Source of the DNA: a phage
Length of the DNA stretch: 64,000 nt
Direction: 5' to 3' (one strand)
Sequence record: PZ386957.1
Position 1 is the stretch's first letter. Each line of letters opens with the position of its first letter. Below are positions 44,872-56,547 of the stretch, one piece after another. Position numbers and translations under genes: made by a program. Below the pieces are notes generated by a model. The model did no database searches. It saw nothing but the letters and a program-made list of their open reading frames with translations, and was not told where the DNA came from.

Positions 44872-45241
44872 TCAGACGAGTTACCACTACGCTAGCGGCT
44901 TCAATCAGCAGTTCATCGGTGTCAATCTGATAACCCTTTTCGAGAATATCTTTACCACGAATAGTTTTAGCGCCTTTAGCAATTGAATCATCGTAATACT
45001 TGCGCATTGCCGCGATCCATTCTTTTTGTACCATATCATCAATATGCGCGTACAGTTCAAAGCGTGCTTGCTGCGGGATAACCTTCATTTTAGCTTTCTC
45101 GCTTTCCGGCATTTGCAGTACCCACGCTTTACGGATCTTGTTCATTGCTCGGTCAAATTCGAGGCTGGTTTTCTTGTTCTGAATGTCTGCTACAGTAATT
45201 TTAGCCAGGTTTGCGGAAGTAGTCATAATATTAATCTCCAA
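44849..45241 (-). CDS. hypothetical protein (130 aa)
   Basis: ORF track. Confidence 0.4.
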   Translation of the reverse strand: MEINIMTTSANLAKITVADIQNKKTSLEFDRAMNKIRKAWVLQMPESEKAKMKVIPQQARFELYAHIDDMVQKEWIAAMRKYYDDSIAKGAKTIRGKDILEKGYQIDTDELLIEAASVVVTRLIAIADGK

Positions 45242-45256
45242 AATAAAATCAGTATA

Positions 45257-45487
45257 TCACGTTCTAAAGTTTGTTGCAACCCCAGCATCAGGGTAATCAA
45301 GTTTATCAAAGTTGGGGACCAGCATAAACTCATGATGACGACAAGACAACATTTTTGTTATGTCTTCATCGCTGTATATGCTGTTTTTCATATCCCCCAT
45401 ACTAACGACATATTCTTCACCGGAATATAGATTGATTAAGGTATACAATTCTAACTCCGGCTGCGTTACTCTGTCAAATGTTAACAT
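45257..45487 (-). CDS. hypothetical protein (76 aa)
   Basis: ORF track. Confidence 0.4.
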   Translation of the reverse strand: MLTFDRVTQPELELYTLINLYSGEEYVVSMGDMKNSIYSDEDITKMLSCRHHEFMLVPNFDKLDYPDAGVATNFRT

Positions 45488-47171
45488 TCATTTCAGTGAA
45501 TCGCCCACGTTTAACCATCTTGAGATGACGGCTAAAATCATCAGGGTTATGGTCACGATGGCTGATAATATACACGTTATCATCTAACTTGTCAATGATG
45601 GAATCAAGTGCTTTTACGCCTTGAACGTCCGTAGCCCCATCATAAATTTCGTCGAGTACCAACAAAGAAATATTAGTACCAGATACTTTACCAGCAACAT
45701 CACGCCACGTAAAGAGCATCGCAAGATCAATACGTGCTTTTTCGCCTTGACTGAATGATGTATACGAAAACGATTCACGCCCCCGTGATTTAATTGTTTC
45801 GTTAAACTCTTCATCTAACGTAAAGATATAATCCGCTTCCATGATATCAAGATAATACGCAATCCGATCATTGAAATATGGAATATATTTCTTGACGATA
45901 GACGCCTTAACACCGGAATCCTTCAACATTTCTGTCACAAATCCACGATGATATTTTTCAAGAACTAGCTTTGATTTTTCATTAGTGATCTCTACCAGTT
46001 CGTGTTCCAGTTTAGCAAGTTCTTCGGAATTGTCAACCCTTTCTTTTTGCAATTCCTGCATTGCTTTCTGAATCTGTTTAGCACGACCTACAGATGCCGT
46101 TAAATTCGCTCTCTGCGACTCTATAGCGCGTTTAATTTCCAAGACCTTAGTTTGTGCTGTCTGGAAAGAATTGGCTTTCTCTGCGTATTCTACGCGTTTC
46201 TCGTCAATCAGAGACAGTTTATGTTCCGCTTGTGCTTTTTGTTCGCGTACAGCTTGATCATTACCTTGAATGATCGGTTGTGTGCACGTAGGACAGACCC
46301 CGCCTTTCTCATGCATATGAATAACACGGTCAAAGTTCTGGATCTGCGCACCAATCTGTGCGATAGCCGTATTAATTTTAGCCAATGCCGCGCTAGGATC
46401 TTCCGGCATAACAACAGCCAATAGCTCATCGGTCAAGCGAGTTTCTTCGGCTTTAAATGCTTTAGCCGATTCTACCTCTTTATCATACATATTCTGTAAA
46501 CGCTGGAGATTCTCGGCACTCGCCTTGCCAGCGTCTTCTATGTACTTTTTATGAGTGTTGATTTGTTGCTGAACGTGATTAGCTTTCATTTCCTGCATTT
46601 GGATATTCTGGGTTATCTCGCGCACATACGCTTTATTCAGTTTATCCATTTCGCCTAGCGTAGCAATATCAAGCAAATCCTCGACCAGTTTACGGCGACC
46701 CGCTGCCGGAAGACTCATAAACGGAACATAACCAGCAGTGCCTAAAACAACGATCTGTTTAAAGCTGGCTAGGTTCATGCCTATGATACCTTCAAAATAT
46801 TCCTGAAAGTCTTTGGTGCTTGCGCTCTCGTCGATCTTTTGACCGTCGCGATGCACTTCGAATACTTCCGGTTTTTGACCACGTTTGATGTAAAACTCTT
46901 TCCCGTCCAGTTCAAACCAGACTTCGACTAACAGTTTCTTTTTGTTGACGCTGTTAATCAATTGGCCTTTCTTGATACTACGAAACGGTTTACCGAACAA
47001 CACAAAGCAAAGCGCCTCGATCATTGTTGATTTACCAGCACCGTTAACACCAGTGATTAGTGTCTTTTTGAATCCGTCTAGCTGAATCTCAACAGGTTCA
47101 GCACCCACGCTCATTATATTTTGATAGCGCAAGGTTTTAAAATTTAACTTTGCCATTAATCCACTCCGCAA
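45474..47171 (-). CDS. 46: recombination endonuclease subunit gp46 (SbcC/Rad50-like ATPase)
   Basis: 565 aa; Walker A GVNGAGKST, long central coiled coil with CPTC zinc hook, C-terminal signature/Walker B LLVLDE. Confidence 0.9.
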   Translation of the reverse strand: MRSGLMAKLNFKTLRYQNIMSVGAEPVEIQLDGFKKTLITGVNGAGKSTMIEALCFVLFGKPFRSIKKGQLINSVNKKKLLVEVWFELDGKEFYIKRGQKPEVFEVHRDGQKIDESASTKDFQEYFEGIIGMNLASFKQIVVLGTAGYVPFMSLPAAGRRKLVEDLLDIATLGEMDKLNKAYVREITQNIQMQEMKANHVQQQINTHKKYIEDAGKASAENLQRLQNMYDKEVESAKAFKAEETRLTDELLAVVMPEDPSAALAKINTAIAQIGAQIQNFDRVIHMHEKGGVCPTCTQPIIQGNDQAVREQKAQAEHKLSLIDEKRVEYAEKANSFQTAQTKVLEIKRAIESQRANLTASVGRAKQIQKAMQELQKERVDNSEELAKLEHELVEITNEKSKLVLEKYHRGFVTEMLKDSGVKASIVKKYIPYFNDRIAYYLDIMEADYIFTLDEEFNETIKSRGRESFSYTSFSQGEKARIDLAMLFTWRDVAGKVSGTNISLLVLDEIYDGATDVQGVKALDSIIDKLDDNVYIISHRDHNPDDFSRHLKMVKRGRFTEMNVNI

Positions 47172-47400
47172 TCACACATTCCATAATATTAAATGCTAAC
47201 ACATCTTCATCAATGTTGTAAACACTTGCCGCCTTCACTTTAACTAATGTGTCTCTGCGATCTGGCAGCATGATCACATAATCCAGTGTCGCAGGGTCAT
47301 ATGTCATAAAGGGATCAATGTAAATCCCTTTATTCAATGCCAGATATTCGCGAAGACCTTCTATAACCCTGTGTCTAAGGTAGGTCATCGATAGAATCAT
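47137..47400 (-). CDS. hypothetical protein (87 aa)
   Basis: ORF track; between 46 and 47. Confidence 0.4.
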   Translation of the reverse strand: MILSMTYLRHRVIEGLREYLALNKGIYIDPFMTYDPATLDYVIMLPDRRDTLVKVKAASVYNIDEDVLAFNIMECVIAEWINGKVKF

Positions 47401-47981
47401 TTTAGTTTATGTTCCTCTAAAAATTCTTCAATTTCACCTTGCAGGTCTTCCGCTTGCTGTTCCAGAATATCGCGAAACTCACCTACACTCAAGCGGTAAT
47501 CACATTTCACCAGTCGATGCGGGAGAATATACCCTTTATACATCGTCTCTGACGCTTCCAGGAATACCCCGCTATGCATAACAGAGATCCACCCTGTTAA
47601 CGTCAAAGGTGTATTCGGAAAATAATATTTGCTGGATTGTTTCCACTGGACGAAAGCACCATATACAATCGGATTATATTCACCGACAACACTCTTAATA
47701 ATGGATTCTACCCTGTCTTTTACAAAGTCGCCAATGTCCATAGTCACCATCAACTCTTGTGGGTGAATCACTTTAAGGTAACGACGATAATCATCATCAT
47801 AGTACAGCTTAACCACTGGTCCACCCCACATAGACGAAATATTCGCTTTCAGATATCCATAAATCGGATTCTTATCATAGGATTGTTTTAGCGTGTAGTT
47901 ATGCAACAGCGTAATAAAATGTTGCATCACCTCAACCGCGCCCGTAATCGTATTCATAATATGTCCCCCTTTCAATTTCAT
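47397..47981 (-). CDS. hypothetical protein (194 aa)
   Basis: ORF track. Confidence 0.45.
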   Translation of the reverse strand: MKLKGGHIMNTITGAVEVMQHFITLLHNYTLKQSYDKNPIYGYLKANISSMWGGPVVKLYYDDDYRRYLKVIHPQELMVTMDIGDFVKDRVESIIKSVVGEYNPIVYGAFVQWKQSSKYYFPNTPLTLTGWISVMHSGVFLEASETMYKGYILPHRLVKCDYRLSVGEFRDILEQQAEDLQGEIEEFLEEHKLK

Positions 47982-48276
47982 ATTGTTTCAGGTCTTCTAA
48001 AAGCTCATCCATTGCTTGTTTCAGCACATGACGCAGAGTAAAGTAATAGCTTTCATCAAATTCTATTTCCGCGCGAGGGATAGAGCGAATCTTACACTTA
48101 ACGGTAGTATCAGTGAGTCGCTTTTCGACCATCATCCGAACTTCTTCATGCTCTTTGGAATACCATACATCAACGGAGATCCCCTTACGTCGAGCAAACA
48201 TAGGCAAAGCTGCATTAAATTCTACTACTTTTTGTGCAAGTGTTTTCATTTTACATACTCCACGATTCACGGGCAA
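47932..48276 (-). CDS. hypothetical protein (114 aa)
   Basis: ORF track. Confidence 0.4.
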   Translation of the reverse strand: MPVNRGVCKMKTLAQKVVEFNAALPMFARRKGISVDVWYSKEHEEVRMMVEKRLTDTTVKCKIRSIPRAEIEFDESYYFTLRHVLKQAMDELLEDLKQYEIERGTYYEYDYGRG

Positions 48277-48496
48277 TCACATTCTGGGTAATATCAGCAA
48301 TCTTACGGGATACGATGTTTGTTAGCCCCTCTTTGGTGATATTTTCACGATCAAATGGGATTTCGTCATGAGTCCATAACCCAGAGTTAGACCGAAATGA
48401 TAGCATATACTGACCATCTCGTACAACCTCAAATACATGGATCTTAGTGAACTTCGCTAAACCTTCGTTGATTTTGTTCAGTGCATCAGTAATCAT
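48251..48496 (-). CDS. hypothetical protein (81 aa; start moved to ATG with SD GGAGG)
   Basis: Track start is a non-ATG codon; ATG at 48496 preceded by GGAGGTTATATT. Confidence 0.4.
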   Translation of the reverse strand: MITDALNKINEGLAKFTKIHVFEVVRDGQYMLSFRSNSGLWTHDEIPFDRENITKEGLTNIVSRKIADITQNVIARESWSM

Positions 48497-48523
48497 AATA
48501 TAACCTCCAATCAATTTTTAGAG

Positions 48524-48552
48524 AGTATAACGGGGATTTCTCCCCGCGTCAA
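48524..48552 (-). promoter_or_regulatory. early sigma70-type promoter with inverted-repeat spacer
   Basis: TTGACG-CGGGGAGAAATCCCCGT-TATACT on minus strand. Confidence 0.55.
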
Positions 48553-49578
48553 CTAATTTTTTGCGCTATTTACTTCGGCTAAAAGTTCATCAGAAATACG
48601 CTTGACCGCCGCAAGTTCTTCCGGTTCTAGGTTTTGTTCTTCCAGATATTCATAGACCATCTGAATAGTGCTTTTAACCTCAATAACACCAGTTTCCTGT
48701 GATGCGCTACTCTCCAGCTTATGGACCACTTTTAGCTTGTGTACAACGGCCTCTAACGCGCTTTCTAACTTAGTTAACCCATTATCAGCGACCGTTGCGA
48801 TAAGACGCACACTAAGCCCCTTATAGCGTTCTACATCGATTTTATCATCTGACGGGTAAGTGATACGCACATGATAAGTTTTGTCGTTCTGGATAAACTC
48901 TTTTTTGTGTGTATCGGTATCAAATACCCAAAAACCACGCGGATCATTTTCGTCACCAGCCGTTAGTGTGTATGGTGTACCGATATACGTTACGTTACCG
49001 CCATCACTGATAGTATGAAAGTGACCAGAAAACACTTCACGGTATTTCTTGAGGAAGTCCGCGCTATAACCTTCGGATTTTAACCCTTTATAGAAATAGT
49101 AACCGGACAATTCCCAATGACCTACACAATATTCGCTAAATGAATTTTGAATAAACTCTAAAACCTCGGATTTATTGTCATCACAAAACCACGGGAACAG
49201 GTCGAATGATACCCCGTCAAAGCTAACGGTTTCCGGCTTATCAATGACCTTAATGCAATCATACTGGCTTAACACTTCACGCGGTGCGTTAGGCTGGATC
49301 TTGTTTCGTTTAAACATATCATGATTGCCTACCGTGATATAACAGGTGATTCCTGCCTCTTCCAGTAATGGGATGACCTTAGTACGGTTAAATTTCATGG
49401 TTTCATGAGTTATCGCCTTGCGGCAATCAAACCAATCCCCTGTCTGAATCCATGTCTTAATATCATGTTCTTTTGAGTATTCAACCGCTTTCTTGATGGT
49501 ATCAAGAATATAATCATGTACCCACGGATCATCGCCACCGATACCAGTATGCAGATCACCCAAAAGCAAAATTTTCAT
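48553..49578 (-). CDS. 47: recombination endonuclease subunit gp47 (SbcD/Mre11-like phosphoesterase)
   Basis: 341 aa; MKILLLGDLH, GDWFD, VGNHD, GHFH metallophosphatase motifs. Confidence 0.9.
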   Translation of the reverse strand: MKILLLGDLHTGIGGDDPWVHDYILDTIKKAVEYSKEHDIKTWIQTGDWFDCRKAITHETMKFNRTKVIPLLEEAGITCYITVGNHDMFKRNKIQPNAPREVLSQYDCIKVIDKPETVSFDGVSFDLFPWFCDDNKSEVLEFIQNSFSEYCVGHWELSGYYFYKGLKSEGYSADFLKKYREVFSGHFHTISDGGNVTYIGTPYTLTAGDENDPRGFWVFDTDTHKKEFIQNDKTYHVRITYPSDDKIDVERYKGLSVRLIATVADNGLTKLESALEAVVHKLKVVHKLESSASQETGVIEVKSTIQMVYEYLEEQNLEPEELAAVKRISDELLAEVNSAKN

Positions 49579-49668
49579 AGTCTCTTCCTCTCTTCGTTTT
49601 CGATGCTCTCACTATATCATAGAAAAATAAAAAGGGAAACCCCTTTCAGAGTCTCCCTTATAAAGCCA

Positions 49669-49956
49669 TTACAGCATACTTAATACCGTTTGACGTGTAC
49701 TAACCCACATAGCGGAAAGCAGTTCTGGAGTGTGTGGCTGTTTGTAGATATCACGTAATTTTCCGATAGCGTAGATATACGCATCACGGTTATCATCGAT
49801 GATAGCTTGTTCAGCCCACCGCTTAAGGCGTGCAATCTCTCGCGAGTTCTTACGCAAGATCTTTTCCGCTTTCTTAGCGGCTTTCGCCTCTAGTTCTGCT
49901 TGTACTTTGTCTACTTCATTCACTACAATCTGGTCATGTTGTTCATCGTAAGTCAT
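49669..49956 (-). CDS. hypothetical protein (95 aa)
   Basis: ORF track; between 47 and 55. Confidence 0.4.
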   Translation of the reverse strand: MTYDEQHDQIVVNEVDKVQAELEAKAAKKAEKILRKNSREIARLKRWAEQAIIDDNRDAYIYAIGKLRDIYKQPHTPELLSAMWVSTRQTVLSML

Positions 49957-49957
49957 A

Positions 49958-50191
49958 TTATTTTCCTTCTGGGATATAGTCGATGATTAAAGAAAATTCA
50001 TCTTCTGATACATTATAGCTATGTGAGATTGTACCCGTCAAGACCTCAAGATCCGGTGACTTGATATTACACGGATCGATAATCACCGGAACGCCGCAAT
50101 CTCTCAAAAATAATTTGGCGAAATACGGCACAAGGTCAGTTTCAAACTCTGCTTCTTCCAGCAAACGGGAAATATTAATTTTCAATCTCAT
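49958..50191 (-). CDS. hypothetical protein (77 aa)
   Basis: ORF track. Confidence 0.4.
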
Positions 50192-50708
50192 AGAATTGGT
50201 CCAGGCTAGGCAATTCCTCGGTCAATACATCTTCAACCTTCGGCGCTTTCGGCTTATTGACCGATTCCTCGTAATTGTTGATCTTATCGTAAATGTCCTG
50301 AATGAATGCCTCATCAGCAATCTGGCACATATCAGCGTCGCGTTCGTCATATACATGATGCACAAAATACTTATATTTTGCGGCTGTCGCTGTTCTTTCT
50401 TTTTTAATGCGCTGTACAAAGGCATTAAAGCACGCTTGCGTAATGTAAGCATGAGGATTTTTATACTTTGTCTCGTCAAAATTAATCAAACCTTTGACCG
50501 CCGCTTCGATTCCATCGTCGATCATTTCTTCGCGCCATGTTTGACTATAACCAGAAAAGTTAAAACGCCGTGATAGATTTTTAGAGATTTGCATAATTGC
50601 TAGACCGATTTGATCGCTCATTGGAACTTGTCGACCTTCGGCTGCAATTCGCTGTTTCCAACGACAAATTTCTTCGTAAAGTTCTTTATTGTTTACATAA
50701 TCAGACAC
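50175..50708 (-). CDS. 55: late sigma factor gp55
   Basis: 177 aa; [76 protein letters not shown] match remembered T4 gp55. Confidence 0.92.
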
Positions 50709-50748
50709 TTCGCACCCTCGCTATTATTTAGGAAATAACCCTTTCGGG

Positions 50749-52221
50749 CTATCTCCATTCTCGTTTATATTTGCGGTCTTTATCAATCCACTGTTGCACC
50801 ATCTCTATTGATTCAGGATCATTTTCATCAAGGGTAAACCCTTTCTTCTTCATGCGGTATTTGAAACCATCAAATCTTTTAGCCTCATCACTGGTCATAT
50901 TATGTTTCTTTTTAAATGATTGCTTACTCTTACGTTGACCACAATCAAGCTGAATCATTTTATCAGTGATAATTTTTGCATTAGGGAAAAATTCTTTGAT
51001 GTATTCAGCCAAAGGCCAATCAGGAACATAGAGATTTACTTCCTGTGTTGATTCGTTATCACGCAAATTGCTACGGAGACACAACTGAAAAGCCGAATCA
51101 AGATAATCGGTTAAATGACGCGCATCAACAAAATCATTGACAGGAAGATCACAACTACGTGCTAATCCGCGAAGAATATCAATTTCCCACGGACGAGCGT
51201 TATAGCTATACAATACCGCAACATTAGTATGATGTATATAATAGTTAAGACCATGTGGACCATATGATAAGCGAACACCTTTACCGCGTGTTGCGTATTC
51301 ACGGTCTTTGTTTACTGTATAGATGAAATTATCACCACATTCATTTATAACCAGGTCAATCATCTTTTCAAATGTACCATTAACCTTAGATTGATTTCGT
51401 GACCATCTCTCGGAATCGGTCATCAAAATGATGTTAACCCGGTGAGTATTCTTATACTCAGTAAAATACAATCTAGATCTTAACTCACTTTCGACAAATT
51501 CGCAACCAACATAATGTTTAAGATACTTCCCGCTATATGTTCGTTCCAGTTCAGCACTTGCTATAGTGACTTTCTTGAAATTTTCCCATACATGATGCTT
51601 TGTGTCGTTCAGGAAAATAACCCGTGATCCATTTTCTCGATGGCCATCATTATGCTTCACCATAACGCGAATCTTACTATTCAATAACGCTCCATAAAGC
51701 GATGTAAGCGCACTATCGATATAATCTAACCCTTTCTTACCCTCATCTAGTTTTTGCTTGATATAGGGCGTTTCAGAAGGTTTTAGAATTAATTCCTGCA
51801 TATCTTCCGATTTATCGGCTATTGGTTCGCAATATTTCAGAATCATACCCAAATTAGATTTAAGTGCGCATTCTTCAAACTCAACCAATTTAGGAACTTC
51901 GTCAATATAAAGGCTATAATCATTGAATAGCTTAGAAGGTTCCAGCGAGGCAAGCGCGTTATGTGTAATAAACAACACATCAATATCATCTCTAAGAGAT
52001 TGAATAATAGACGCTTGCACTGTCATGTAACTTTTTAGTTTGCTGTCACTATCAATCAAGACAGCACGACCGCCTAACTTCATAAACTTATTGTAAGATT
52101 GTTCACTTAAAACACGCGTTGGTGAAGCAATAACCGCTTTTTCTTTTGTCTCTAGGACGTGGGAAAGAATTGCGTCAGTCTTCCCCGCTGCTGGTAATGC
52201 GATTAATGTTTCAATTTTCAT
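50749..52221 (-). CDS. helicase-like P-loop NTPase (Walker A, motif Ia-like, DE-box)
   Basis: 490 aa; ALPAAGKT (Walker A), SPTRVLSEQ (motif Ia-like), LYIDEVP (Walker B/DExx), basic C-terminal tail; no T4 counterpart recognised. Confidence 0.5.
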   Translation of the reverse strand: MKIETLIALPAAGKTDAILSHVLETKEKAVIASPTRVLSEQSYNKFMKLGGRAVLIDSDSKLKSYMTVQASIIQSLRDDIDVLFITHNALASLEPSKLFNDYSLYIDEVPKLVEFEECALKSNLGMILKYCEPIADKSEDMQELILKPSETPYIKQKLDEGKKGLDYIDSALTSLYGALLNSKIRVMVKHNDGHRENGSRVIFLNDTKHHVWENFKKVTIASAELERTYSGKYLKHYVGCEFVESELRSRLYFTEYKNTHRVNIILMTDSERWSRNQSKVNGTFEKMIDLVINECGDNFIYTVNKDREYATRGKGVRLSYGPHGLNYYIHHTNVAVLYSYNARPWEIDILRGLARSCDLPVNDFVDARHLTDYLDSAFQLCLRSNLRDNESTQEVNLYVPDWPLAEYIKEFFPNAKIITDKMIQLDCGQRKSKQSFKKKHNMTSDEAKRFDGFKYRMKKKGFTLDENDPESIEMVQQWIDKDRKYKREWR

Positions 52222-52526
52222 TAGAAACCCTTACGTCGTGCTTTCTGGCATTTCTTGATCGCCTTATCCGAAATTTCACGTTTCGGGGCGATCTCTTTAA
52301 CGCCAAATGCTTTCACTCCAAATTCAGAAAGAATATATTCTACCATCAATTCACGCACACGCGCTTTACCGATATTCACACCATTATTTTTCAGATATTG
52401 CTGGCCTTCTACTTGCATAAGGTCCAGATCTGCATCAGTGATATTAATCTCTTCCATGCGTCCAAATCGAGAGTAAACCATGTGTGCGATTGCATTGTGT
52501 ACTAACATAATATATTCCTCACTCAA
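52221..52526 (-). CDS. hypothetical protein (101 aa)
   Basis: ORF track; start overlaps upstream ORF stop. Confidence 0.4.
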   Translation of the reverse strand: MSEEYIMLVHNAIAHMVYSRFGRMEEINITDADLDLMQVEGQQYLKNNGVNIGKARVRELMVEYILSEFGVKAFGVKEIAPKREISDKAIKKCQKARRKGF

Positions 52527-52529
52527 GAA

Positions 52530-52688
52530 TTACTTAATGATACTTACTTTACCAGATCCGTGACAATGAGCGCAACACCCATCACCACGCAATCCTGTTC
52601 CGTTACAGTGTTTACACTTCTTCAAAGGTAAAGCCATTATGGCAAATAAAGCAATAATGAACACCGAAACTAAATTCTCAATAATCAT
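52530..52688 (-). CDS. small membrane-anchored zinc-ribbon protein (52 aa; not in ORF track)
   Basis: MIIENLVSVFIIALFAIMALPLKKCKHCNGTGLRGDGCCAHCHGSGKVSIIK: one hydrophobic helix then two CxxCxGxG DnaJ-like units; SD GAGGG; alternative start at internal ATG 52637. Confidence 0.4.
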   Translation of the reverse strand: MIIENLVSVFIIALFAIMALPLKKCKHCNGTGLRGDGCCAHCHGSGKVSIIK

Positions 52689-52947
52689 AAATCGCCCTCA
52701 GTTCTTTATAGCCTCCAATGTGCTCGTTGTCAATGAATATCTGGGGGTATACAAATCGGAGGCTGTCTTTACCCAACCTCCCCGCCAGTTCTTCAATCAT
52801 ATCACGGTCGGGAATAATGTCAACCCCGACCTGCTTGAATACTGGTTTAAGTGTATACGGAATACCCAGATCATCCAGTAGCTTCATTGCACTAATACAA
52901 CCATAACAATGATAAGCCTCTTTCGGTATACCGTATATCTCGATCAT
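52678..52947 (-). CDS. glutaredoxin-like protein (NrdH-like)
   Basis: 89 aa; CYGC active site near N-terminus and VYPQIFIDNEHIGGYKEL glutaredoxin C-terminal motif. Confidence 0.75.
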   Translation of the reverse strand: MIEIYGIPKEAYHCYGCISAMKLLDDLGIPYTLKPVFKQVGVDIIPDRDMIEELAGRLGKDSLRFVYPQIFIDNEHIGGYKELRAIYDY

Positions 52948-53420
52948 TTCTCAGCCTTTAATCTTTCCAGTTCTTCTTCCAGTTCCTTGATGCGTTGTTC
53001 TCGTTCAAAATCACGCTGTAACTTAGTGGCGAATACTCGTTTAAACTGATTGTAATCATCGATTTTAAACACTTCTTCTTCGCCATAGCGACGTACAGAA
53101 ACTTCGTAGTTATTGAAGAATTGTTGCATCATTGCTTCGGATGATAGTTCTGCTGATACTACTTTAAAATATTGATCTTCTGTAGGCGAAAACCAATTGC
53201 AAGCATAAAGATAAACCTTTTCATTGTCTGGACACTGGTAAGCCTTACCATCGATTTCAATCACAGAAACATATTCAGGTATAGTAGATGAATCAATAGC
53301 TAAGACTTTAAACTGACGGTCCCCGATAAACTCGGAGATCGCACGATTCGCATCACTGATCGCAAATGCTTTACGCGCTTGTTCGTTTTTCCACTGATAG
53401 GTCATGCCAACAACAAACAT
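52944..53420 (-). CDS. member of repeat-containing paralogous family (one N-terminal repeat unit plus coiled-coil tail)
   Basis: MTYQWKNEQARKAF...FKVLAIDSS...IEIDGKAY resembles the repeat unit in neighbouring genes; start moved to Met with SD GAGG. Confidence 0.5.
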   Translation of the reverse strand: MFVVGMTYQWKNEQARKAFAISDANRAISEFIGDRQFKVLAIDSSTIPEYVSVIEIDGKAYQCPDNEKVYLYACNWFSPTEDQYFKVVSAELSSEAMMQQFFNNYEVSVRRYGEEEVFKIDDYNQFKRVFATKLQRDFEREQRIKELEEELERLKAEK

Positions 53421-53421
53421 A

Positions 53422-54255
53422 TTACCAACCTCGCTCTTTACCAATCAAAAATTCAACTTCACGACGTTTAATGTCTTCTTGAAGGTCTTTAATCTTCTGG
53501 CGATCTTGCATGATTTCGTCCATTTTGTCAAGTGCTGCGATGAAATCATCGAAACGTTCAAAGGTTTTACCTTCATTTGCTTCGCCAAATTTAACCATTG
53601 TCAGGCCGTAACGACTACTAAACAGACGTTTCAACTGTCCAACGACCTTAGAATCATCGTTCACCTTTTCTTCTGGTTCTTTCACTGTTTCAACTTCACG
53701 AAAATATTTTCGTTCAAGCCCAACAAACCACACAGCATCAACATCATCATCAACACCCGCCGAATGAGGATTAAATGTTCCACAAGCATTATCATTATTG
53801 ACGTCGATCATAGTAACGAAACCAACAGAATCAACGGAAGATACCGTAAAAGTCTCATCTCCTATCCAATCAGCAATTTTACGGTTGATATTAGAACAGT
53901 GAGAAAACGTCACTTTTGCGTTTACATCTTTCCAAGTATAAGTTTTACCAACTTCCCATTTAGGAGGAACTTCTTCAACTTCACGAAAGAATTTTCTATC
54001 GAATGGACTAAAGAAATATGTTGATGTCCAAATGTCTTTTCCTGTAGCAGTTTTCGCCGTATGATAAACACCGTCTAGCTCTATTGCATCAATCCAACCG
54101 TTACCCTCGATCTCGATGATGGTAAATGGCTTGTCACCAATAGCTACACTAATATCGCTGTTAAGTGGAGAAAGACAACCGTCTACGTTAGTAATAAACT
54201 CAGTTTTAGCGTTTTCGTCTTTCCAAGTGTAAGTTTTACCAATTTCCCATTTCAT
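53422..54255 (-). CDS. member of repeat-containing paralogous family (two tandem repeat units)
   Basis: KWEIGKTYTWKDENAKTEF...RKFFREV and KWEVGKTYTWKDVNAKVTF...RKYFREV; preceded by AGAGGATTATATT-ATG. Confidence 0.55.
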   Translation of the reverse strand: MKWEIGKTYTWKDENAKTEFITNVDGCLSPLNSDISVAIGDKPFTIIEIEGNGWIDAIELDGVYHTAKTATGKDIWTSTYFFSPFDRKFFREVEEVPPKWEVGKTYTWKDVNAKVTFSHCSNINRKIADWIGDETFTVSSVDSVGFVTMIDVNNDNACGTFNPHSAGVDDDVDAVWFVGLERKYFREVETVKEPEEKVNDDSKVVGQLKRLFSSRYGLTMVKFGEANEGKTFERFDDFIAALDKMDEIMQDRQKIKDLQEDIKRREVEFLIGKERGW

Positions 54256-54267
54256 AATATAATCCTC

Positions 54268-54732
54268 TTAACCGATTTTATCAAGTTCGTTTAATGCTTT
54301 CTCTGCTTCCTGTATAGCTTGCACCCTTTCCGGCATTTTGTCAAGAAAATCTTTCAACTCTTCAAAACTGGAGATATGACGCAAGGCGTTAGCACCGATA
54401 GCCGCATGTGATTTGCATTCAAAGCGAATTTTATAATTATCCATCGCCAACTTGAGAAGATCAATTAGTTTAGATTCTTCTGGAATAATAATTTCTTCAA
54501 ATCTGCTACGGTCATGATCCAGAAACCAACAAGATAGACCTACATCGGTTGAACTCATATAAGTTCCATCATGAAGATATACAGACCGCACGTATCCTTT
54601 TTTCGCATCAACCGACGCAACTTTAAACGGTAATCTCAGATATTTCAAATAATCAACATCATACCATTTAAAAAATTGGTTTGCATCTTTTACATCTTTC
54701 CACGCATAGGTCTTACCAGCTTCCCATTTCAT
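54268..54732 (-). CDS. member of repeat-containing paralogous family
   Basis: MKWEAGKTYAWKDVKDANQFF... plus conserved C-terminal helical module (FLDKMPERVQAI). Confidence 0.5.
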   Translation of the reverse strand: MKWEAGKTYAWKDVKDANQFFKWYDVDYLKYLRLPFKVASVDAKKGYVRSVYLHDGTYMSSTDVGLSCWFLDHDRSRFEEIIIPEESKLIDLLKLAMDNYKIRFECKSHAAIGANALRHISSFEELKDFLDKMPERVQAIQEAEKALNELDKIG

Positions 54733-54736
54733 AATA

Positions 54737-55267
54737 TCATCTCTCATTTTTGATACGTGATTCTAATTGGATCATACGGTCGCGCGTTTGCTTGTATTCA
54801 CGGATAGCACCGATCCGGCTAGGCATACCATCTAGGACGCTCTTAATCCCTTCTAGGGTAGTGATTTTAGCAATGCTATTATGTAACCCCATCTTATCGA
54901 TCAACTGAATGTCGTAGGCTTCCATAAGCAGTCCCAGACGTTCTAAGGTTAAATCTTGTTCTTTATCTTCTTCCGATTCTGGAATCTTAGGTTCAATAGT
55001 AACTTCGGTAAAGAAACGACGCTCACCACCCCAAAACCACACACCGGAACAGTCAATAGGGGATTCTTTTAAAGTCATGGAGTCGAAATCACTACCAATA
55101 ATAGTAATTTCTCTAACATCACCATCGTCGTCAATGTCTTCTACCTTAAACGGGCGACCAGCCAACAGGTCCATAATACATCTGTTAATACCAGACGAAA
55201 ATTTAGTCAGTTCGGCTTTCGACGCTTCGCATTCAATCTTGTAAGTTTTACCAACTTCCCATTCCAT
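54737..55267 (-). CDS. member of repeat-containing paralogous family
   Basis: MEWEVGKTYKIECEASKAELTKF...GERRFFTEV plus C-terminal helical module (VLDGMPSRIGAI). Confidence 0.5.
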   Translation of the reverse strand: MEWEVGKTYKIECEASKAELTKFSSGINRCIMDLLAGRPFKVEDIDDDGDVREITIIGSDFDSMTLKESPIDCSGVWFWGGERRFFTEVTIEPKIPESEEDKEQDLTLERLGLLMEAYDIQLIDKMGLHNSIAKITTLEGIKSVLDGMPSRIGAIREYKQTRDRMIQLESRIKNER

Positions 55268-55277
55268 AATAATCACC

Positions 55278-55787
55278 TCAAATAATTTTCACTGGAATAC
55301 TATTAACAATCTTGTATTGTACTTGATTGTCAGACCCCCGCCACGGCTTCTTCGTTGGCATATCTTTAATATAACGCCCATCGATGAACATGTCAACTGA
55401 TTCTACAATTTTTCTTTGCTCATCATTCAATTGGTCAAGGGTATAACCGGACCATAGCCAAATATCTTTATTTGGCATCCATGATTTTACTTCATCGATG
55501 ATCCGCTGTACACCCTTTAAATTGCGTTTATACAGTGGATCACCACCTAAGAATGTTAGCCCCTGAATAAAATCAGGTCTAAGCAGATCCAGAATCAATC
55601 CCATTGTATCATCGGTGAATGGTTCCCCGTTCTTAGGATTGAGTAGGCTAGCATTAAAGCAACCATCACATGCGTGTGAACATCCGGTAACGTAAAGGGA
55701 GACTCTCACTCCCTCACCGTTAACCATATCACAATCTTTAATATCGGCATAGCGTAGTTTGCCGTATGTATCAGAACTCATATTCAA
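55278..55787 (-). CDS. nrdG: anaerobic ribonucleotide reductase activating protein NrdG (radical SAM)
   Basis: 169 aa; CSHACDGC cluster motif (CxxxCxxC), GLTFLGGDPL; adjacent to the nrdD region. Confidence 0.88.
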   Translation of the reverse strand: MNMSSDTYGKLRYADIKDCDMVNGEGVRVSLYVTGCSHACDGCFNASLLNPKNGEPFTDDTMGLILDLLRPDFIQGLTFLGGDPLYKRNLKGVQRIIDEVKSWMPNKDIWLWSGYTLDQLNDEQRKIVESVDMFIDGRYIKDMPTKKPWRGSDNQVQYKIVNSIPVKII

Positions 55788-55923
55788 TTACCCCGAACTC
55801 GTTTACAATCTGCGCTTTATAGTAACCACCGCGAGATGCTAATAGATAAGCTGGGCTTAGGTATTCGTATTCACGGATTTCTACTTGTGCGTTTTCAGTT
55901 TCCCAAATCAGTAAAGTCCACAT
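55771..55923 (-). CDS. hypothetical protein (50 aa; start moved to internal Met)
   Basis: ATG at 55923 preceded by AGGAGAATCAAAT and an upstream promoter. Confidence 0.35.
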   Translation of the reverse strand: MWTLLIWETENAQVEIREYEYLSPAYLLASRGGYYKAQIVNEFGVIEYEF

Positions 55924-55965
55924 ATTTGATTCTCCTGTAAAGTTGTATCTCGTCTTGATGAATAT

Positions 55966-55994
55966 AGTATAGGGGATCTCGCGATCCCCGTCAA
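55966..55994 (-). promoter_or_regulatory. early sigma70-type promoter with palindromic spacer
   Basis: TTGACG-GGGATCGCGAGATCCCC-TATACT on minus strand. Confidence 0.6.
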
Positions 55995-55998
55995 GCAT

Positions 55999-56547
55999 TT
56001 ATTTTAAATTTTTTCGAATGTATTCAGACCATTCCTTCCCTGTCAGTTCGGTCCCATTCTGGAAACTGAAATATTCATACGGCATCGAGTCAAGATAAAA
56101 CAGGATCATACATCGCGCCATATAATACCAATCACGATTAAAGTAAACTACGTTATCACCAGTACCATCAACCCCTTTATCATAACCATCGCTGGTACGG
56201 GCGACCCATTGAATAGTATCATTTTTCTCACGGATAGTCACAGGTTCCCAATATCCAGCACATCCAGCATGACCACACGAACAAGTAAGGAAATATTGCC
56301 CTTTTGCTTTGTTGTCATCCCATTCACGATGGATTGGTTCGATCTCGTGAAACAGTGCCAAACAATCATGATTATGCAACACTGGCTTACCATCAATCAA
56401 TGCATGGAATGTATACAAACGACCCGTAGACAAATAGCTATCCTCACGCTCAACCAGTTCAATAGCAATCTTTTTAGCTCGTTCTTTGTGTCGTTGTGCT
56501 TTACGCTTACGGTTTAATGATTTCATATTCACCTCACACATTATCAA
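55999..56547 (-). CDS. hypothetical Cys-rich protein (182 aa)
   Basis: ORF track; HNHDCLALFH and CSCGHAGCAGYW could bind metal; function unknown. Confidence 0.45.
   Translation of the reverse strand: MIMCEVNMKSLNRKRKAQRHKERAKKIAIELVEREDSYLSTGRLYTFHALIDGKPVLHNHDCLALFHEIEPIHREWDDNKAKGQYFLTCSCGHAGCAGYWEPVTIREKNDTIQWVARTSDGYDKGVDGTGDNVVYFNRDWYYMARCMILFYLDSMPYEYFSFQNGTELTGKEWSEYIRKNLK

What the first reader, a model, noticed from the sequence alone, without database searches (positions are those of the whole stretch)
50749..52221. Unassigned 490-aa helicase-like ATPase next to gene 55
This ORF has Walker A (ALPAAGKT), a motif Ia-like SPTRVL, a DE-box (LYIDEVP) and a basic C-terminal tail, but does not match any T4 replication or recombination protein I can recall. 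It lies where T4 carries alpha-glucosyltransferase-region genes, and no glucosyltransferase-sized ORF is seen between 47 and 55. It may be an accessory helicase or NTPase acquired into a hypervariable slot.
Basis: inference. Interest (0 to 1): 0.5.

Follow-up and report, generated by a model that had tools for sequence, protein, structure and literature searches.

The report
Uncharacterised XPD/DinG-like helicase of T4-like phages
The ORF is real and encodes a complete two-domain helicase-type ATPase from a phage and plasmid family that was predicted in 2018 but never tested; it is an old resident of many T4-like phages, not a new acquisition, although this phage carries an unusually divergent copy swapped in by recombination.

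Summary
The 490-aa ORF at 50749..52221 (- strand) and its motifs are confirmed. The window is an RB49-like (Krischvirus) phage. The ORF has orthologues at the same position in 244 phage records, nearly all called "hypothetical protein". They belong to PHROG 2467 (E 1e-148) and pVOG 1685, which Kazlauskas et al. 2018 predicted to be a new virus and plasmid helicase family.

Distant bacterial relatives (hhalign E 1e-52) carry a C-terminal extension that looks like a primase with a PriCT domain.

The gene sits in T4's 55.1 slot, not in the a-gt region. Its start overlaps the stop of a homologue of T4 55.2, a host topoisomerase I inhibitor.

In this phage the gene body is only about 66% nucleotide-identical to RB49/JSE, while the flanks are 95-100% identical (dS 1.6 against 0.24; dN/dS about 0.15). 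That indicates an imported allele under purifying selection.

The most likely function is an accessory DNA helicase in replication or recombination. This has not been tested.

The parts
50749..52221 (-). 490-aa ORF encoding an SF2 helicase-like ATPase (PHROG 2467 / pVOG 1685)
   Evidence: ORF listing; PHROG 2467 at E 1e-148; 244 phage orthologues; AlphaFold model with pLDDT 87.8
52177..52194 (-). Walker A / motif I, PAAGKT (residues 10-15)
   Evidence: P10, G13, K14 and T15 are invariant in 27 homologues
52096..52128 (-). Motif Ia-like ASPTRVLSEQS (residues 32-42)
   Evidence: S33, L38 and S42 are invariant; A32, S39 and Q41 are conserved in at least 90%
51892..51912 (-). Walker B / motif II, LYIDEVP (residues 104-110)
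   Evidence: L104, D107, E108 and V109 are invariant
51604..51885 (-). 94-residue accessory domain (residues 113-206) inserted in RecA-like domain 1 between motifs II and III, the position of the XPD Arch domain
51550..51567 (-). Motif III-like TIASAE (residues 219-224), on strand 217-222
   Evidence: T219 is conserved in at least 90%. Position 224 is N in at least 90% of homologues but E in this allele.
50947..51456 (-). RecA-like domain 2 (residues 256-425)
51061..51090 (-). Motif VI-like FQLCLRSNLR (residues 378-387), putative arginine fingers
   Evidence: F378, Q379, L380, C381, R383 and R387 are invariant. The bacterial relatives conserve the same positions as YQAVMRxSLR.
50752..50946 (-). 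Basic C-terminal helical tail (residues 426-490; helices 436-439, 444-459 and 469-489)
   Evidence: pI 9.7; model; the least conserved region, although W478 is invariant
52221..52526 (-). Upstream gene, a homologue of T4 gp55.2 (DUF7570); its stop overlaps the helicase start by 1 nt
   Evidence: 44% identity to T4 gp55.2, E 3e-21. Pfam DUF7570 at 6e-29. It is directly upstream of the helicase in 18 of 29 IMG/VR loci. T4 gp55.2 is an E. coli topoisomerase I inhibitor (PMC4396842).
50175..50708 (-). Downstream gene 55 (late sigma factor), 99.4% identical to JSE
   Evidence: gp55 lies downstream of the helicase in 21 of 29 loci.
50750..52100 (.). Divergent-allele patch: about 66% nucleotide identity to phage JSE, inside flanks that are 95-100% identical
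   Evidence: Sliding identity. Per-gene identity. dS is 1.61 for the helicase against 0.24 for gp55.

Best explanation
The ORF encodes a catalytically intact superfamily-2 helicase or translocase. It is an orthologue of the PHROG 2467 / pVOG 1685 family found in non-T-even T4-like phages.

Proposed mechanism. ATP binds in the cleft between two RecA-like domains. The contributing residues would be Walker A K14/T15, Walker B D107/E108 and motif VI Q379/R383/R387. Hydrolysis drives movement along a nucleic-acid strand. The 94-residue domain inserted between motifs II and III, where XPD and DinG carry the Arch domain, would act as the strand-separating or strand-enclosing element. The basic C-terminal helices would add nucleic-acid or partner binding.

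Proposed role. Because the fold resembles XPD/DinG, I infer a DNA substrate and possibly 5'->3' polarity. Distant relatives have the same helicase module fused to primase-like domains, and the phage gene sits among DNA-metabolism genes (55.2, 46/47, nrdG/H; a DprA-like gene in some Aeromonas phages). From this I infer an accessory, pre-replicatively expressed DNA helicase that opens or remodels DNA during phage replication or recombination, for example on R-loop, D-loop or fork substrates. It would act alongside gp41, Dda and UvsW.

Shown here: the ORF, its conservation, the motifs, the predicted two-RecA fold, structural proximity to XPD/DinG, homology to the bacterial fusion proteins, synteny, and allele replacement. 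Inferred: DNA as substrate, unwinding activity, polarity and biological role.
For: - Motifs are invariant across 27 homologues.
- The model has pLDDT 87.8 and pTM 0.76.
- hhalign of the phage family against the roughly 800-aa alphaproteobacterial family gives probability 100%, E 1.2e-52, over 431 columns including the insertion.
- Those relatives carry a C-terminal extension with an AEP motif I-like IWLDNDGG, an invariant HGFD, and weak PriCT_1 and RepB_primase_C hits.
- Kazlauskas et al. 2018 independently report all3500-family primases fused to helicase domains whose closest homologues are T4-like phage pVOG 1685 proteins. The RB49-type orthologue kvi_185 is tagged VOG1685.
- dN/dS of 0.12-0.16 indicates purifying selection.
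- The gene is translationally coupled to the 55.2 homologue. In Aeromonas 25/44RR-type phages it is coupled to a phrog_768 "DprA-like recombination mediator" gene.
- There is no late-promoter consensus nearby; the only two TATAAATA sites in the window are at 2926 and 8031.
Against: - No biochemical or genetic data exist for any family member, as far as I could find.
- Sequence-level support for a helicase is thin. The only Pfam hit is DEAD at 28.7 bits against a cut-off of 26, covering residues 11-111. There is no Helicase_C, DEAD_2 or Helicase_C_2 hit. NCBIfam, PADLOC and PDB sequence searches found nothing.
- The XPD/DinG likeness is structural only, at 10-17% identity. The defining Fe-S domain is absent.
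- Polarity cannot be read from a model.
- These phages already carry Dda, so the gene fills no obvious gap.
- T-even phages do without this gene: T4 has 55.1 in the slot.
Confidence: 0.6

Rival explanations
1. It is an origin-binding or initiator helicase, analogous to herpesvirus UL9 or plasmid Rep helicases. It would recognise a phage DNA site through its C-terminal helices and open it for priming.
For: Kazlauskas et al. 2018 group pVOG 1685 with pVOG 9714, which they say is most similar to UL9. Relatives are fused to primase-like and PriCT-like domains typical of mobile-element replication initiators. One bacterial relative sits next to an integrase fragment. The tail is basic and helical. 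Bacterial relatives have an AT-hook-like GRPRKH after the core.
Against: There is no Pfam Herpes_ori_bp hit even at E<=10. No iterons or tandem repeats lie near the gene. The tail is the least conserved part. From established knowledge, T4-type phages start replication from R-loops and recombination intermediates without a dedicated initiator. The allele can be swapped without swapping its neighbours, which would be hard if it recognised a phage-specific site.
Confidence: 0.15
2. It is an RNA helicase or RNA-remodelling ATPase of the DEAD-box type, acting on phage or host transcripts.
Against: The motif is DEVP, not DEAD. Walker A starts at residue 10, which leaves no room for a Q motif. There is no Helicase_C hit. 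The best structural matches, by a clear margin, are DNA helicases of the XPD/DinG family. Relatives are fused to DNA primase-like domains.
Confidence: 0.07
3. It is mainly a host-interaction protein, either a counter-defence factor or a protein sensed by a host defence system. Its allelic diversity would then reflect an arms race rather than a core DNA-metabolism role.
For: At least three alleles, 67-79% identical to one another, circulate on near-identical RB49-like backbones. The gene lies in a plastic region next to other allele-variable ORFs. It is dispensable in T-even phages. Its fold class is shared with the defence helicases CasDinG, Hna and DdmD.
Against: dN/dS is 0.12-0.16 with every catalytic motif retained. 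The helicase dS is seven times that of the adjacent gp55, which points to import of an old allele rather than fast local evolution. There are no PADLOC hits. Conservation across several genera at one locus argues for a housekeeping function.
Confidence: 0.12
4. It is an ATP-driven translocase or protein-displacing motor that does not separate strands, comparable to Swi2/Snf2-like or Mfd-like proteins.
Against: XPD/DinG hits are clearly better and align about 80-100 more residues. None of the accessory domains typical of remodellers were found.
Confidence: 0.06

Closest known systems
[quoted passage not shown] 2018, PMC5862659)
   Same: Full-length profile match (E 1e-148). It is orthologous and syntenic with the RB49, JSE and kvi genes, and kvi_185 is tagged VOG1685.
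   Different: This allele is only 67% identical to the RB49-type protein. Its best match among 5.8 billion protein clusters is 79%.
XPD/Rad3/DinG/CasDinG family of SF2 5'->3' DNA helicases
   Different: There is no 4Fe-4S domain and no four-cysteine cluster (only C131 and C381 are invariant). The motif is DEVP rather than DEAH. There are no DEAD_2, Helicase_C_2 or PDB sequence hits. The protein is much smaller, at 490 aa. Polarity is unknown.
Helicase modules fused to archaeo-eukaryotic primases in bacterial mobile elements (all3500-family fusions in PMC5862659; the roughly 800-aa alphaproteobacterial proteins found here)
   Same: The helicase core, including the insertion and part of the basic linker, is homologous (hhalign E 1.2e-52 over 431 columns).
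   Different: The phage protein has no primase-like or PriCT-like extension. The bacterial proteins found here have the helicase at the N terminus, whereas the published fusions have it at the C terminus.
Herpesvirus UL9 origin-binding helicase / SPbeta pVOG 9714
   Same: The 2018 paper groups it with pVOG 1685. Both are SF2 proteins with a DExx box of the DEV type and a C-terminal DNA-binding region (the UL9 details are from my own knowledge).
   Different: There is no PF02399 hit at E<=10. There is no evidence of site-specific binding or of nearby repeats.
T4 UvsW (SF2) and Dda (SF1B) accessory helicases
   Same: All are accessory phage helicases encoded alongside the replicative gp41.

Membership tests
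Superfamily 2 helicases (core) | Walker A (GxGKT) and Walker B (DExx) in RecA-like domain 1 | tested here: met
   PAAGKT at 10-15 and DEV at 107-109 are invariant. Pfam DEAD scores 28.7 bits against a cut-off of 26.
Superfamily 2 helicases (core) | Second RecA-like domain carrying motif VI arginines | tested here: met
Superfamily 2 helicases (core) | Nucleic-acid-dependent ATPase and unwinding activity | not testable with these tools
   Needs biochemistry.
XPD/Rad3/DinG family | Closest overall fold | tested here: met
XPD/Rad3/DinG family | Arch domain inserted between motifs II and III | tested here: inconclusive
   A 94-residue insertion is at that position. Whether it has the Arch fold could not be checked, because the tools give no residue-level superposition.
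XPD/Rad3/DinG family | 4Fe-4S cluster domain with four cysteines between motifs Ia and II (missing in some DinG and CasDinG proteins) | tested here: not met
   Residues 43-103 form only canonical RecA elements. Only C131 and C381 are invariant.
XPD/Rad3/DinG family | Sequence-profile membership (Pfam DEAD_2 / Helicase_C_2; PDB homologues) | tested here: not met
   No such hits at E<=10. Relatives give only weak PADLOC and NCBIfam hits to type IV DinG (Csf4), and only in the Walker A region.
XPD/Rad3/DinG family | 5'->3' translocation polarity | not testable with these tools
   Needs tailed-duplex unwinding assays.
pVOG 1685 / PHROG 2467 | Full-length profile match and orthology with T4-like phage members | tested here: met
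   PHROG 2467 at E 1e-148 covers residues 1-487. It is syntenic with kvi_185, which is tagged VOG1685. The pVOG profile itself was not available.
DEAD-box RNA helicases | Q motif, D-E-A-D box, SAT motif, Helicase_C domain | tested here: not met
   The box is DEVP. Walker A begins at residue 10, so there is no room for a Q motif. The motif III-like sequence is TIASA. There is no Helicase_C hit.
T4 UvsW | Sequence homology to UvsW | tested here: not met
Herpes UL9-like origin-binding proteins (PF02399) | Profile match; site-specific origin binding | tested here: not met
   No PF02399 hit at E<=10. No repeats near the gene. DNA binding itself cannot be tested here.

The most novel reading that the evidence does not exclude
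The 55.2 gene and this helicase form a functional two-gene module. The phage inhibits host topoisomerase I through gp55.2, which would promote negative supercoiling and R-loop formation. The Fe-S-less XPD/DinG-like helicase would then process the resulting R-loops, D-loops or opened duplexes, either to create priming sites or to clear them. That would be a replication-initiation or conflict-resolution route that T4 itself lacks. It would be inherited from the same ancestor as the helicase-primase replication proteins of bacterial mobile elements.
Probability: 0.12. Interest if true: 0.7.

Novelty: new member of a known kind. Interest (0 to 1): 0.4.

Why it matters
T4-like phages are the best-studied model for replication and recombination. 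Even so, a full-size, catalytically intact helicase conserved in several genera (RB49, RB16/RB43, 44RR/25, Aeh1, and the Proteus, Serratia and Cronobacter phages) has no assigned function. Database annotations call it "hypothetical protein", "putative helicase" or even "DNA primase".

This work places it structurally next to XPD/DinG. It links it by homology to helicase-primase fusion proteins of mobile elements. It also shows a conserved coupling to a topoisomerase I inhibitor gene. Together these give concrete hypotheses that can be tested for polarity, substrate and partners.

For this window specifically, the gene is ordinary in kind: an orthologue of a known but uncharacterised family. 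Its one notable feature is a clean example of allele replacement inside an otherwise near-identical phage backbone.

Tried and rejected
- **PDB sequence searches.** The single protein and the family profile gave no hits at E<=10.
- **NCBIfam and PADLOC.** Nothing significant for the window protein. Relatives gave only P-loop-level hits to Cas3, Csf4, PbeA and CyRepA1.
- **T4 gp55.1 as a remnant of the helicase.** Rejected; there is no significant similarity.
- **Functional replacement of Dda.** Rejected. Dda homologues are present in the same phage groups.
- **Complementarity with MotA.** Inconclusive. No RB49-like phage appears among the 45 listed MotA matches, but 43 Aeromonas phage records do have MotA, so there is no clean anticorrelation.
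- **Iterons or an origin next to the gene.** Only short chance-level repeats were found.
- **Own promoter or terminator.** The consensus scans were not enriched over shuffled sequence. No late promoter lies nearby.
- **"DprA-like" neighbour in Aeromonas phages.** Pfam gave no hit. PHROG 768 carries that label at E 7e-66. No homologue is present in this window.
- **Literature.** I found no paper with experiments on this protein.

Full report
**1. The observation**

The ORF listing returns an ORF at exactly 50749..52221 on the minus strand, with an ATG start and 490 codons.
- ALPAAGKT at residues 8-15
- SPTRVL at residues 33-38
- LYIDEVP at residues 104-110
- a lysine- and arginine-rich tail

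The last 65 residues have pI 9.7, against 8.0 for the whole protein. The start codon shares one base with the stop codon of the upstream ORF (TAATG). G+C over the gene is 0.36-0.38, slightly below the 0.40-0.42 of its neighbours.

**2. Where the window comes from and how common the gene is**

Megablast of 45000-56000 finds 59 RB49-like (Krischvirus) phages, each at about 92% overall identity. A tblastn with the protein finds 244 phage records with full-length matches. They fall into these groups:
- Krischvirus, about 67% identity
- Morganella, Proteus and Serratia phages, 41-43%
- Aeromonas 44RR/25-type, 38-39%
- Cronobacter S13, 38%
- Aeh1-type, 35-37%
- RB16/RB43-type, about 36%

Nearly all of these genes are annotated "hypothetical protein". 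One is called "putative helicase" and one "DNA primase".

T4 itself has the unrelated 87-aa gene 55.1 at this position. The organism counts indicate that the gene is absent from the T-even genera, which make up most of the 1743 records that carry Dda.

A scan of IMG/VR returned 29 loci, all on T4-like contigs of up to 235 kb.

**3. Sequence-level classification**

- Pfam gives only a marginal DEAD hit on residues 11-111 (28.7 bits against a cut-off of 26).
- PHROGs gives phrog_2467, labelled "unknown function", at E 1e-148 over the full length.
- NCBIfam, PADLOC and the PDB sequence searches give nothing.

A 27-sequence alignment shows these positions to be invariant:
- P10, G13, K14, T15 (motif I)
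- S33, L38, S42 (motif Ia)
- T86, H87
- D107, E108, V109 (motif II)
- Y301, N304, R307
- G324, N326
- S339, N341, W345
- F378-Q379-L380-C381-x-R383-x3-R387, a motif VI-like pattern with two arginines

Motif III-like TIA(S/C)A sits at residues 219-223. That is about 110 residues after motif II, so an extra domain is inserted between the two.

**4. Structure**

AlphaFold2 with this alignment gives a confident model (mean pLDDT 87.8, pTM 0.76). Its parts are:
- RecA-like domain 1: residues 1-112 plus 207-250
- an inserted alpha/beta domain: residues 113-206
- RecA-like domain 2: residues 256-425
- three C-terminal helices: residues 436-489

Foldseek against the PDB puts XPD, DinG and CasDinG first (E 5e-9 to 1e-6).

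From established knowledge of XPD, the Arch domain lies between motifs II and III and the Fe-S domain between motifs Ia and II. Here an insertion occupies the Arch position. There is no Fe-S domain, and only two cysteines are invariant.

I therefore describe the protein as XPD/DinG-like in architecture. I do not file it as a member of that family.

**5. The wider family**

A profile search of 1.84 billion cluster representatives finds 1384 relatives at E<=1e-3 and 820 at E<=1e-10. Many are 750-890 aa long, with the helicase module at the N terminus. A few carry N-terminal extensions instead.

The 800-aa group is alphaproteobacterial: Mesorhizobium, Bosea, Methylobacterium, Azospirillum and Agrobacterium. 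One member lies beside an integrase fragment. Others match Sinorhizobium megaplasmids and the Agrobacterium jumbo phage Atu_ph07.

hhalign between the phage family and this group gives probability 100% and E 1.2e-52 over 431 columns. The aligned region includes the insertion and the start of the basic tail.

The C-terminal extension of these proteins has the following features:
- an invariant WLDxDG block, which resembles AEP primase motif I (hhhDhD)
- an invariant HGFD
- a terminal helical domain that gives sub-threshold PriCT_1 hits (best 3.2e-4 at 20.7 bits against a cut-off of 21.1) and RepB_primase_C hits

I could not confirm the primase fold by structure search.

**6. Literature**

Kazlauskas et al. 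2018 (PMC5862659) describe all3500-family archaeo-eukaryotic primases that carry C-terminal domains "only remotely similar" to SF2 helicases. They state that the closest homologues of those domains are uncharacterised proteins of T4-like phages (pVOG 1685) and of SPbeta (pVOG 9714, which they call UL9-like). [quoted passage not shown]

The RB49-type orthologue in phage kvi is tagged VOG1685. The family has therefore already been noticed, but only as a prediction. I found no experimental work on it.

**7. Genomic context**

The gene order on the minus strand is:
- nrdG
- four paralogous ORFs
- nrdH-like glutaredoxin
- a 52-aa CxxC ORF
- the 55.2 homologue
- the helicase
- gene 55
- a-gt.5 and a-gt.4 homologues
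- gene 47
- gene 46

The 101-aa upstream ORF is a true homologue of T4 gp55.2 (44% identity, E 3e-21; Pfam DUF7570). T4 gp55.2 has been shown experimentally to inhibit E. coli topoisomerase I (PMC4396842).

Across the 29 IMG/VR loci, a 55.2 homologue lies directly upstream in 18, usually with a 1-4 nt overlap of stop and start. Gene 55 lies downstream in 21. In the RB16/RB43 group gene 34 follows instead, yet the pairing of 55.2 with the helicase is kept.

In Aeromonas 25/44RR-type phages the overlapping upstream gene is instead a phrog_768 "DprA-like recombination mediator".

The only two late-promoter consensus sites (TATAAATA) in the window lie far away on the other strand. Together with the early and middle character of the neighbouring T4 genes (established knowledge), this suggests expression before replication.

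That is incorrect. T4's a-gt lies between genes 55 and 47, on the other side of gene 55.

**8. Allele replacement**

Against phage JSE, the flanking DNA is 95-100% identical. Positions 50800-52000 are only about 66% identical.

At the protein level the figures against JSE/kvi are:
- gp55: 99.4% identical
- gp55.2: 95%
- nrdG: 100%
- gp46 and gp47: 96-99.6%
- the helicase: 67.6%

A metagenomic contig (L008) carries a third allele, 79% identical to this one, on the same backbone (gp55 97%, nrdG 99%).

The helicase comparison with JSE gives dS 1.61 and dN 0.25 (ratio 0.16). Adjacent gene 55 gives dS 0.24 and dN 0.002. So the gene body has a much older coalescence than its flanks. It was imported by homologous recombination from a more distant relative, and it remains under purifying selection.

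Divergence is spread over the whole protein. It is greatest in the inserted domain and the tail.

No protein in the 5.8-billion-cluster collection is more than 79% identical.

**9. Interpretation**

The evidence supports a catalytically competent SF2 motor with XPD/DinG-like architecture. DNA as the substrate, unwinding activity, 5'->3' polarity and a role in replication or recombination are all inferences. They rest on four points:
- the structural neighbours
- the fusion of the same module to primase-like domains in mobile elements
- the DNA-metabolism neighbourhood
- the coupling to a topoisomerase I inhibitor gene

E. coli DinG is known to unwind R-loops and D-loops, and loss of topoisomerase I promotes R-loops (my own knowledge). 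This makes a functional link between 55.2 and the helicase plausible, but it is untested.

The rivals (origin-binding initiator, RNA helicase, host-interaction factor, non-unwinding translocase) are not excluded. Each has less support.

**10. Verdict**

The gene is a new, divergent allele of a known but experimentally uncharacterised phage and plasmid helicase family. It is not a novel acquisition and not a new kind of system.

Interest is moderate. It comes from three things: the lack of any functional data for a helicase conserved in many T4-like phages, the newly documented Fe-S-less XPD/DinG-like architecture, and the conserved pairing with 55.2.

Noticed in passing
window 52944-55276 (- strand): ORFs 54737..55276, 54268..54747, 53422..54255 and 52944..53444: Four tandem paralogous ORFs of 179, 159, 277 and 166 aa share an N-terminal domain of about 90 aa with the motif W-E-x-GKTY-x-WKD. 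The 277-aa protein contains two copies of it. Pairwise identity is 26-34% (E 1e-4 to 1e-12). There is no Pfam hit for the 166- and 277-aa members, which were the two scanned. These ORFs also vary by allele among RB49-like phages.
   Followed up: partly
window 53600-54000: A second divergent patch (58-65% nucleotide identity to JSE) lies inside the 277-aa paralogue, flanked by sequence that is 96-98% identical. There is also a smaller dip to 80% at 47800-48000.
   Followed up: no
window 52530-52688 (- strand): A 52-aa ORF has a hydrophobic N-terminal half and a CxxC-x10-CCxHC cysteine motif. It is 100% conserved in JSE and kvi and belongs to PHROG 3931 (unknown function). It is annotated "putative membrane protein" in phage W115.
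   Followed up: no
L042 1929-2504 (Aeromonas phage 50AhydR13PP); also L020, L021, L023 and L038: In Aeromonas 25/44RR-type phages, the gene that overlaps the helicase start by 4 nt is a 191-aa phrog_768 "DprA-like DNA recombination-mediator" rather than 55.2. It contains a GIGSR...GGADGAD motif. 55.2 lies two genes further upstream. No homologue is present in this window.
   Followed up: partly
P0060 and relatives (alignments A2 and A3); L005 10001-12460 (Azospirillum): Alphaproteobacterial proteins of about 800 aa combine this helicase module, an AT-hook-like GRPRKH linker, a primase-like domain (WLDxDG, HGFD) and a PriCT-like helical end. This is the reverse domain order of the published all3500 primase-helicase fusions. 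One lies beside a phage-integrase fragment.
   Followed up: partly
window 1-64000: Only two exact T4 late-promoter consensus sites (TATAAATA) occur in 64 kb, at 2926 and 8031. Both lie just upstream of large plus-strand ORFs that are probably tail-fibre genes. This is fewer than the 5.8 expected by chance.
   Followed up: no
Database records PP889458.1 (L041) and ON286974.1 (L004): Orthologues of this gene are annotated inconsistently in GenBank: "DNA primase" in Klebsiella phage phi1_146002, "putative helicase" in phage W115, and "hypothetical protein" elsewhere. The "DNA primase" label is not supported by the domain content found here.
   Followed up: partly
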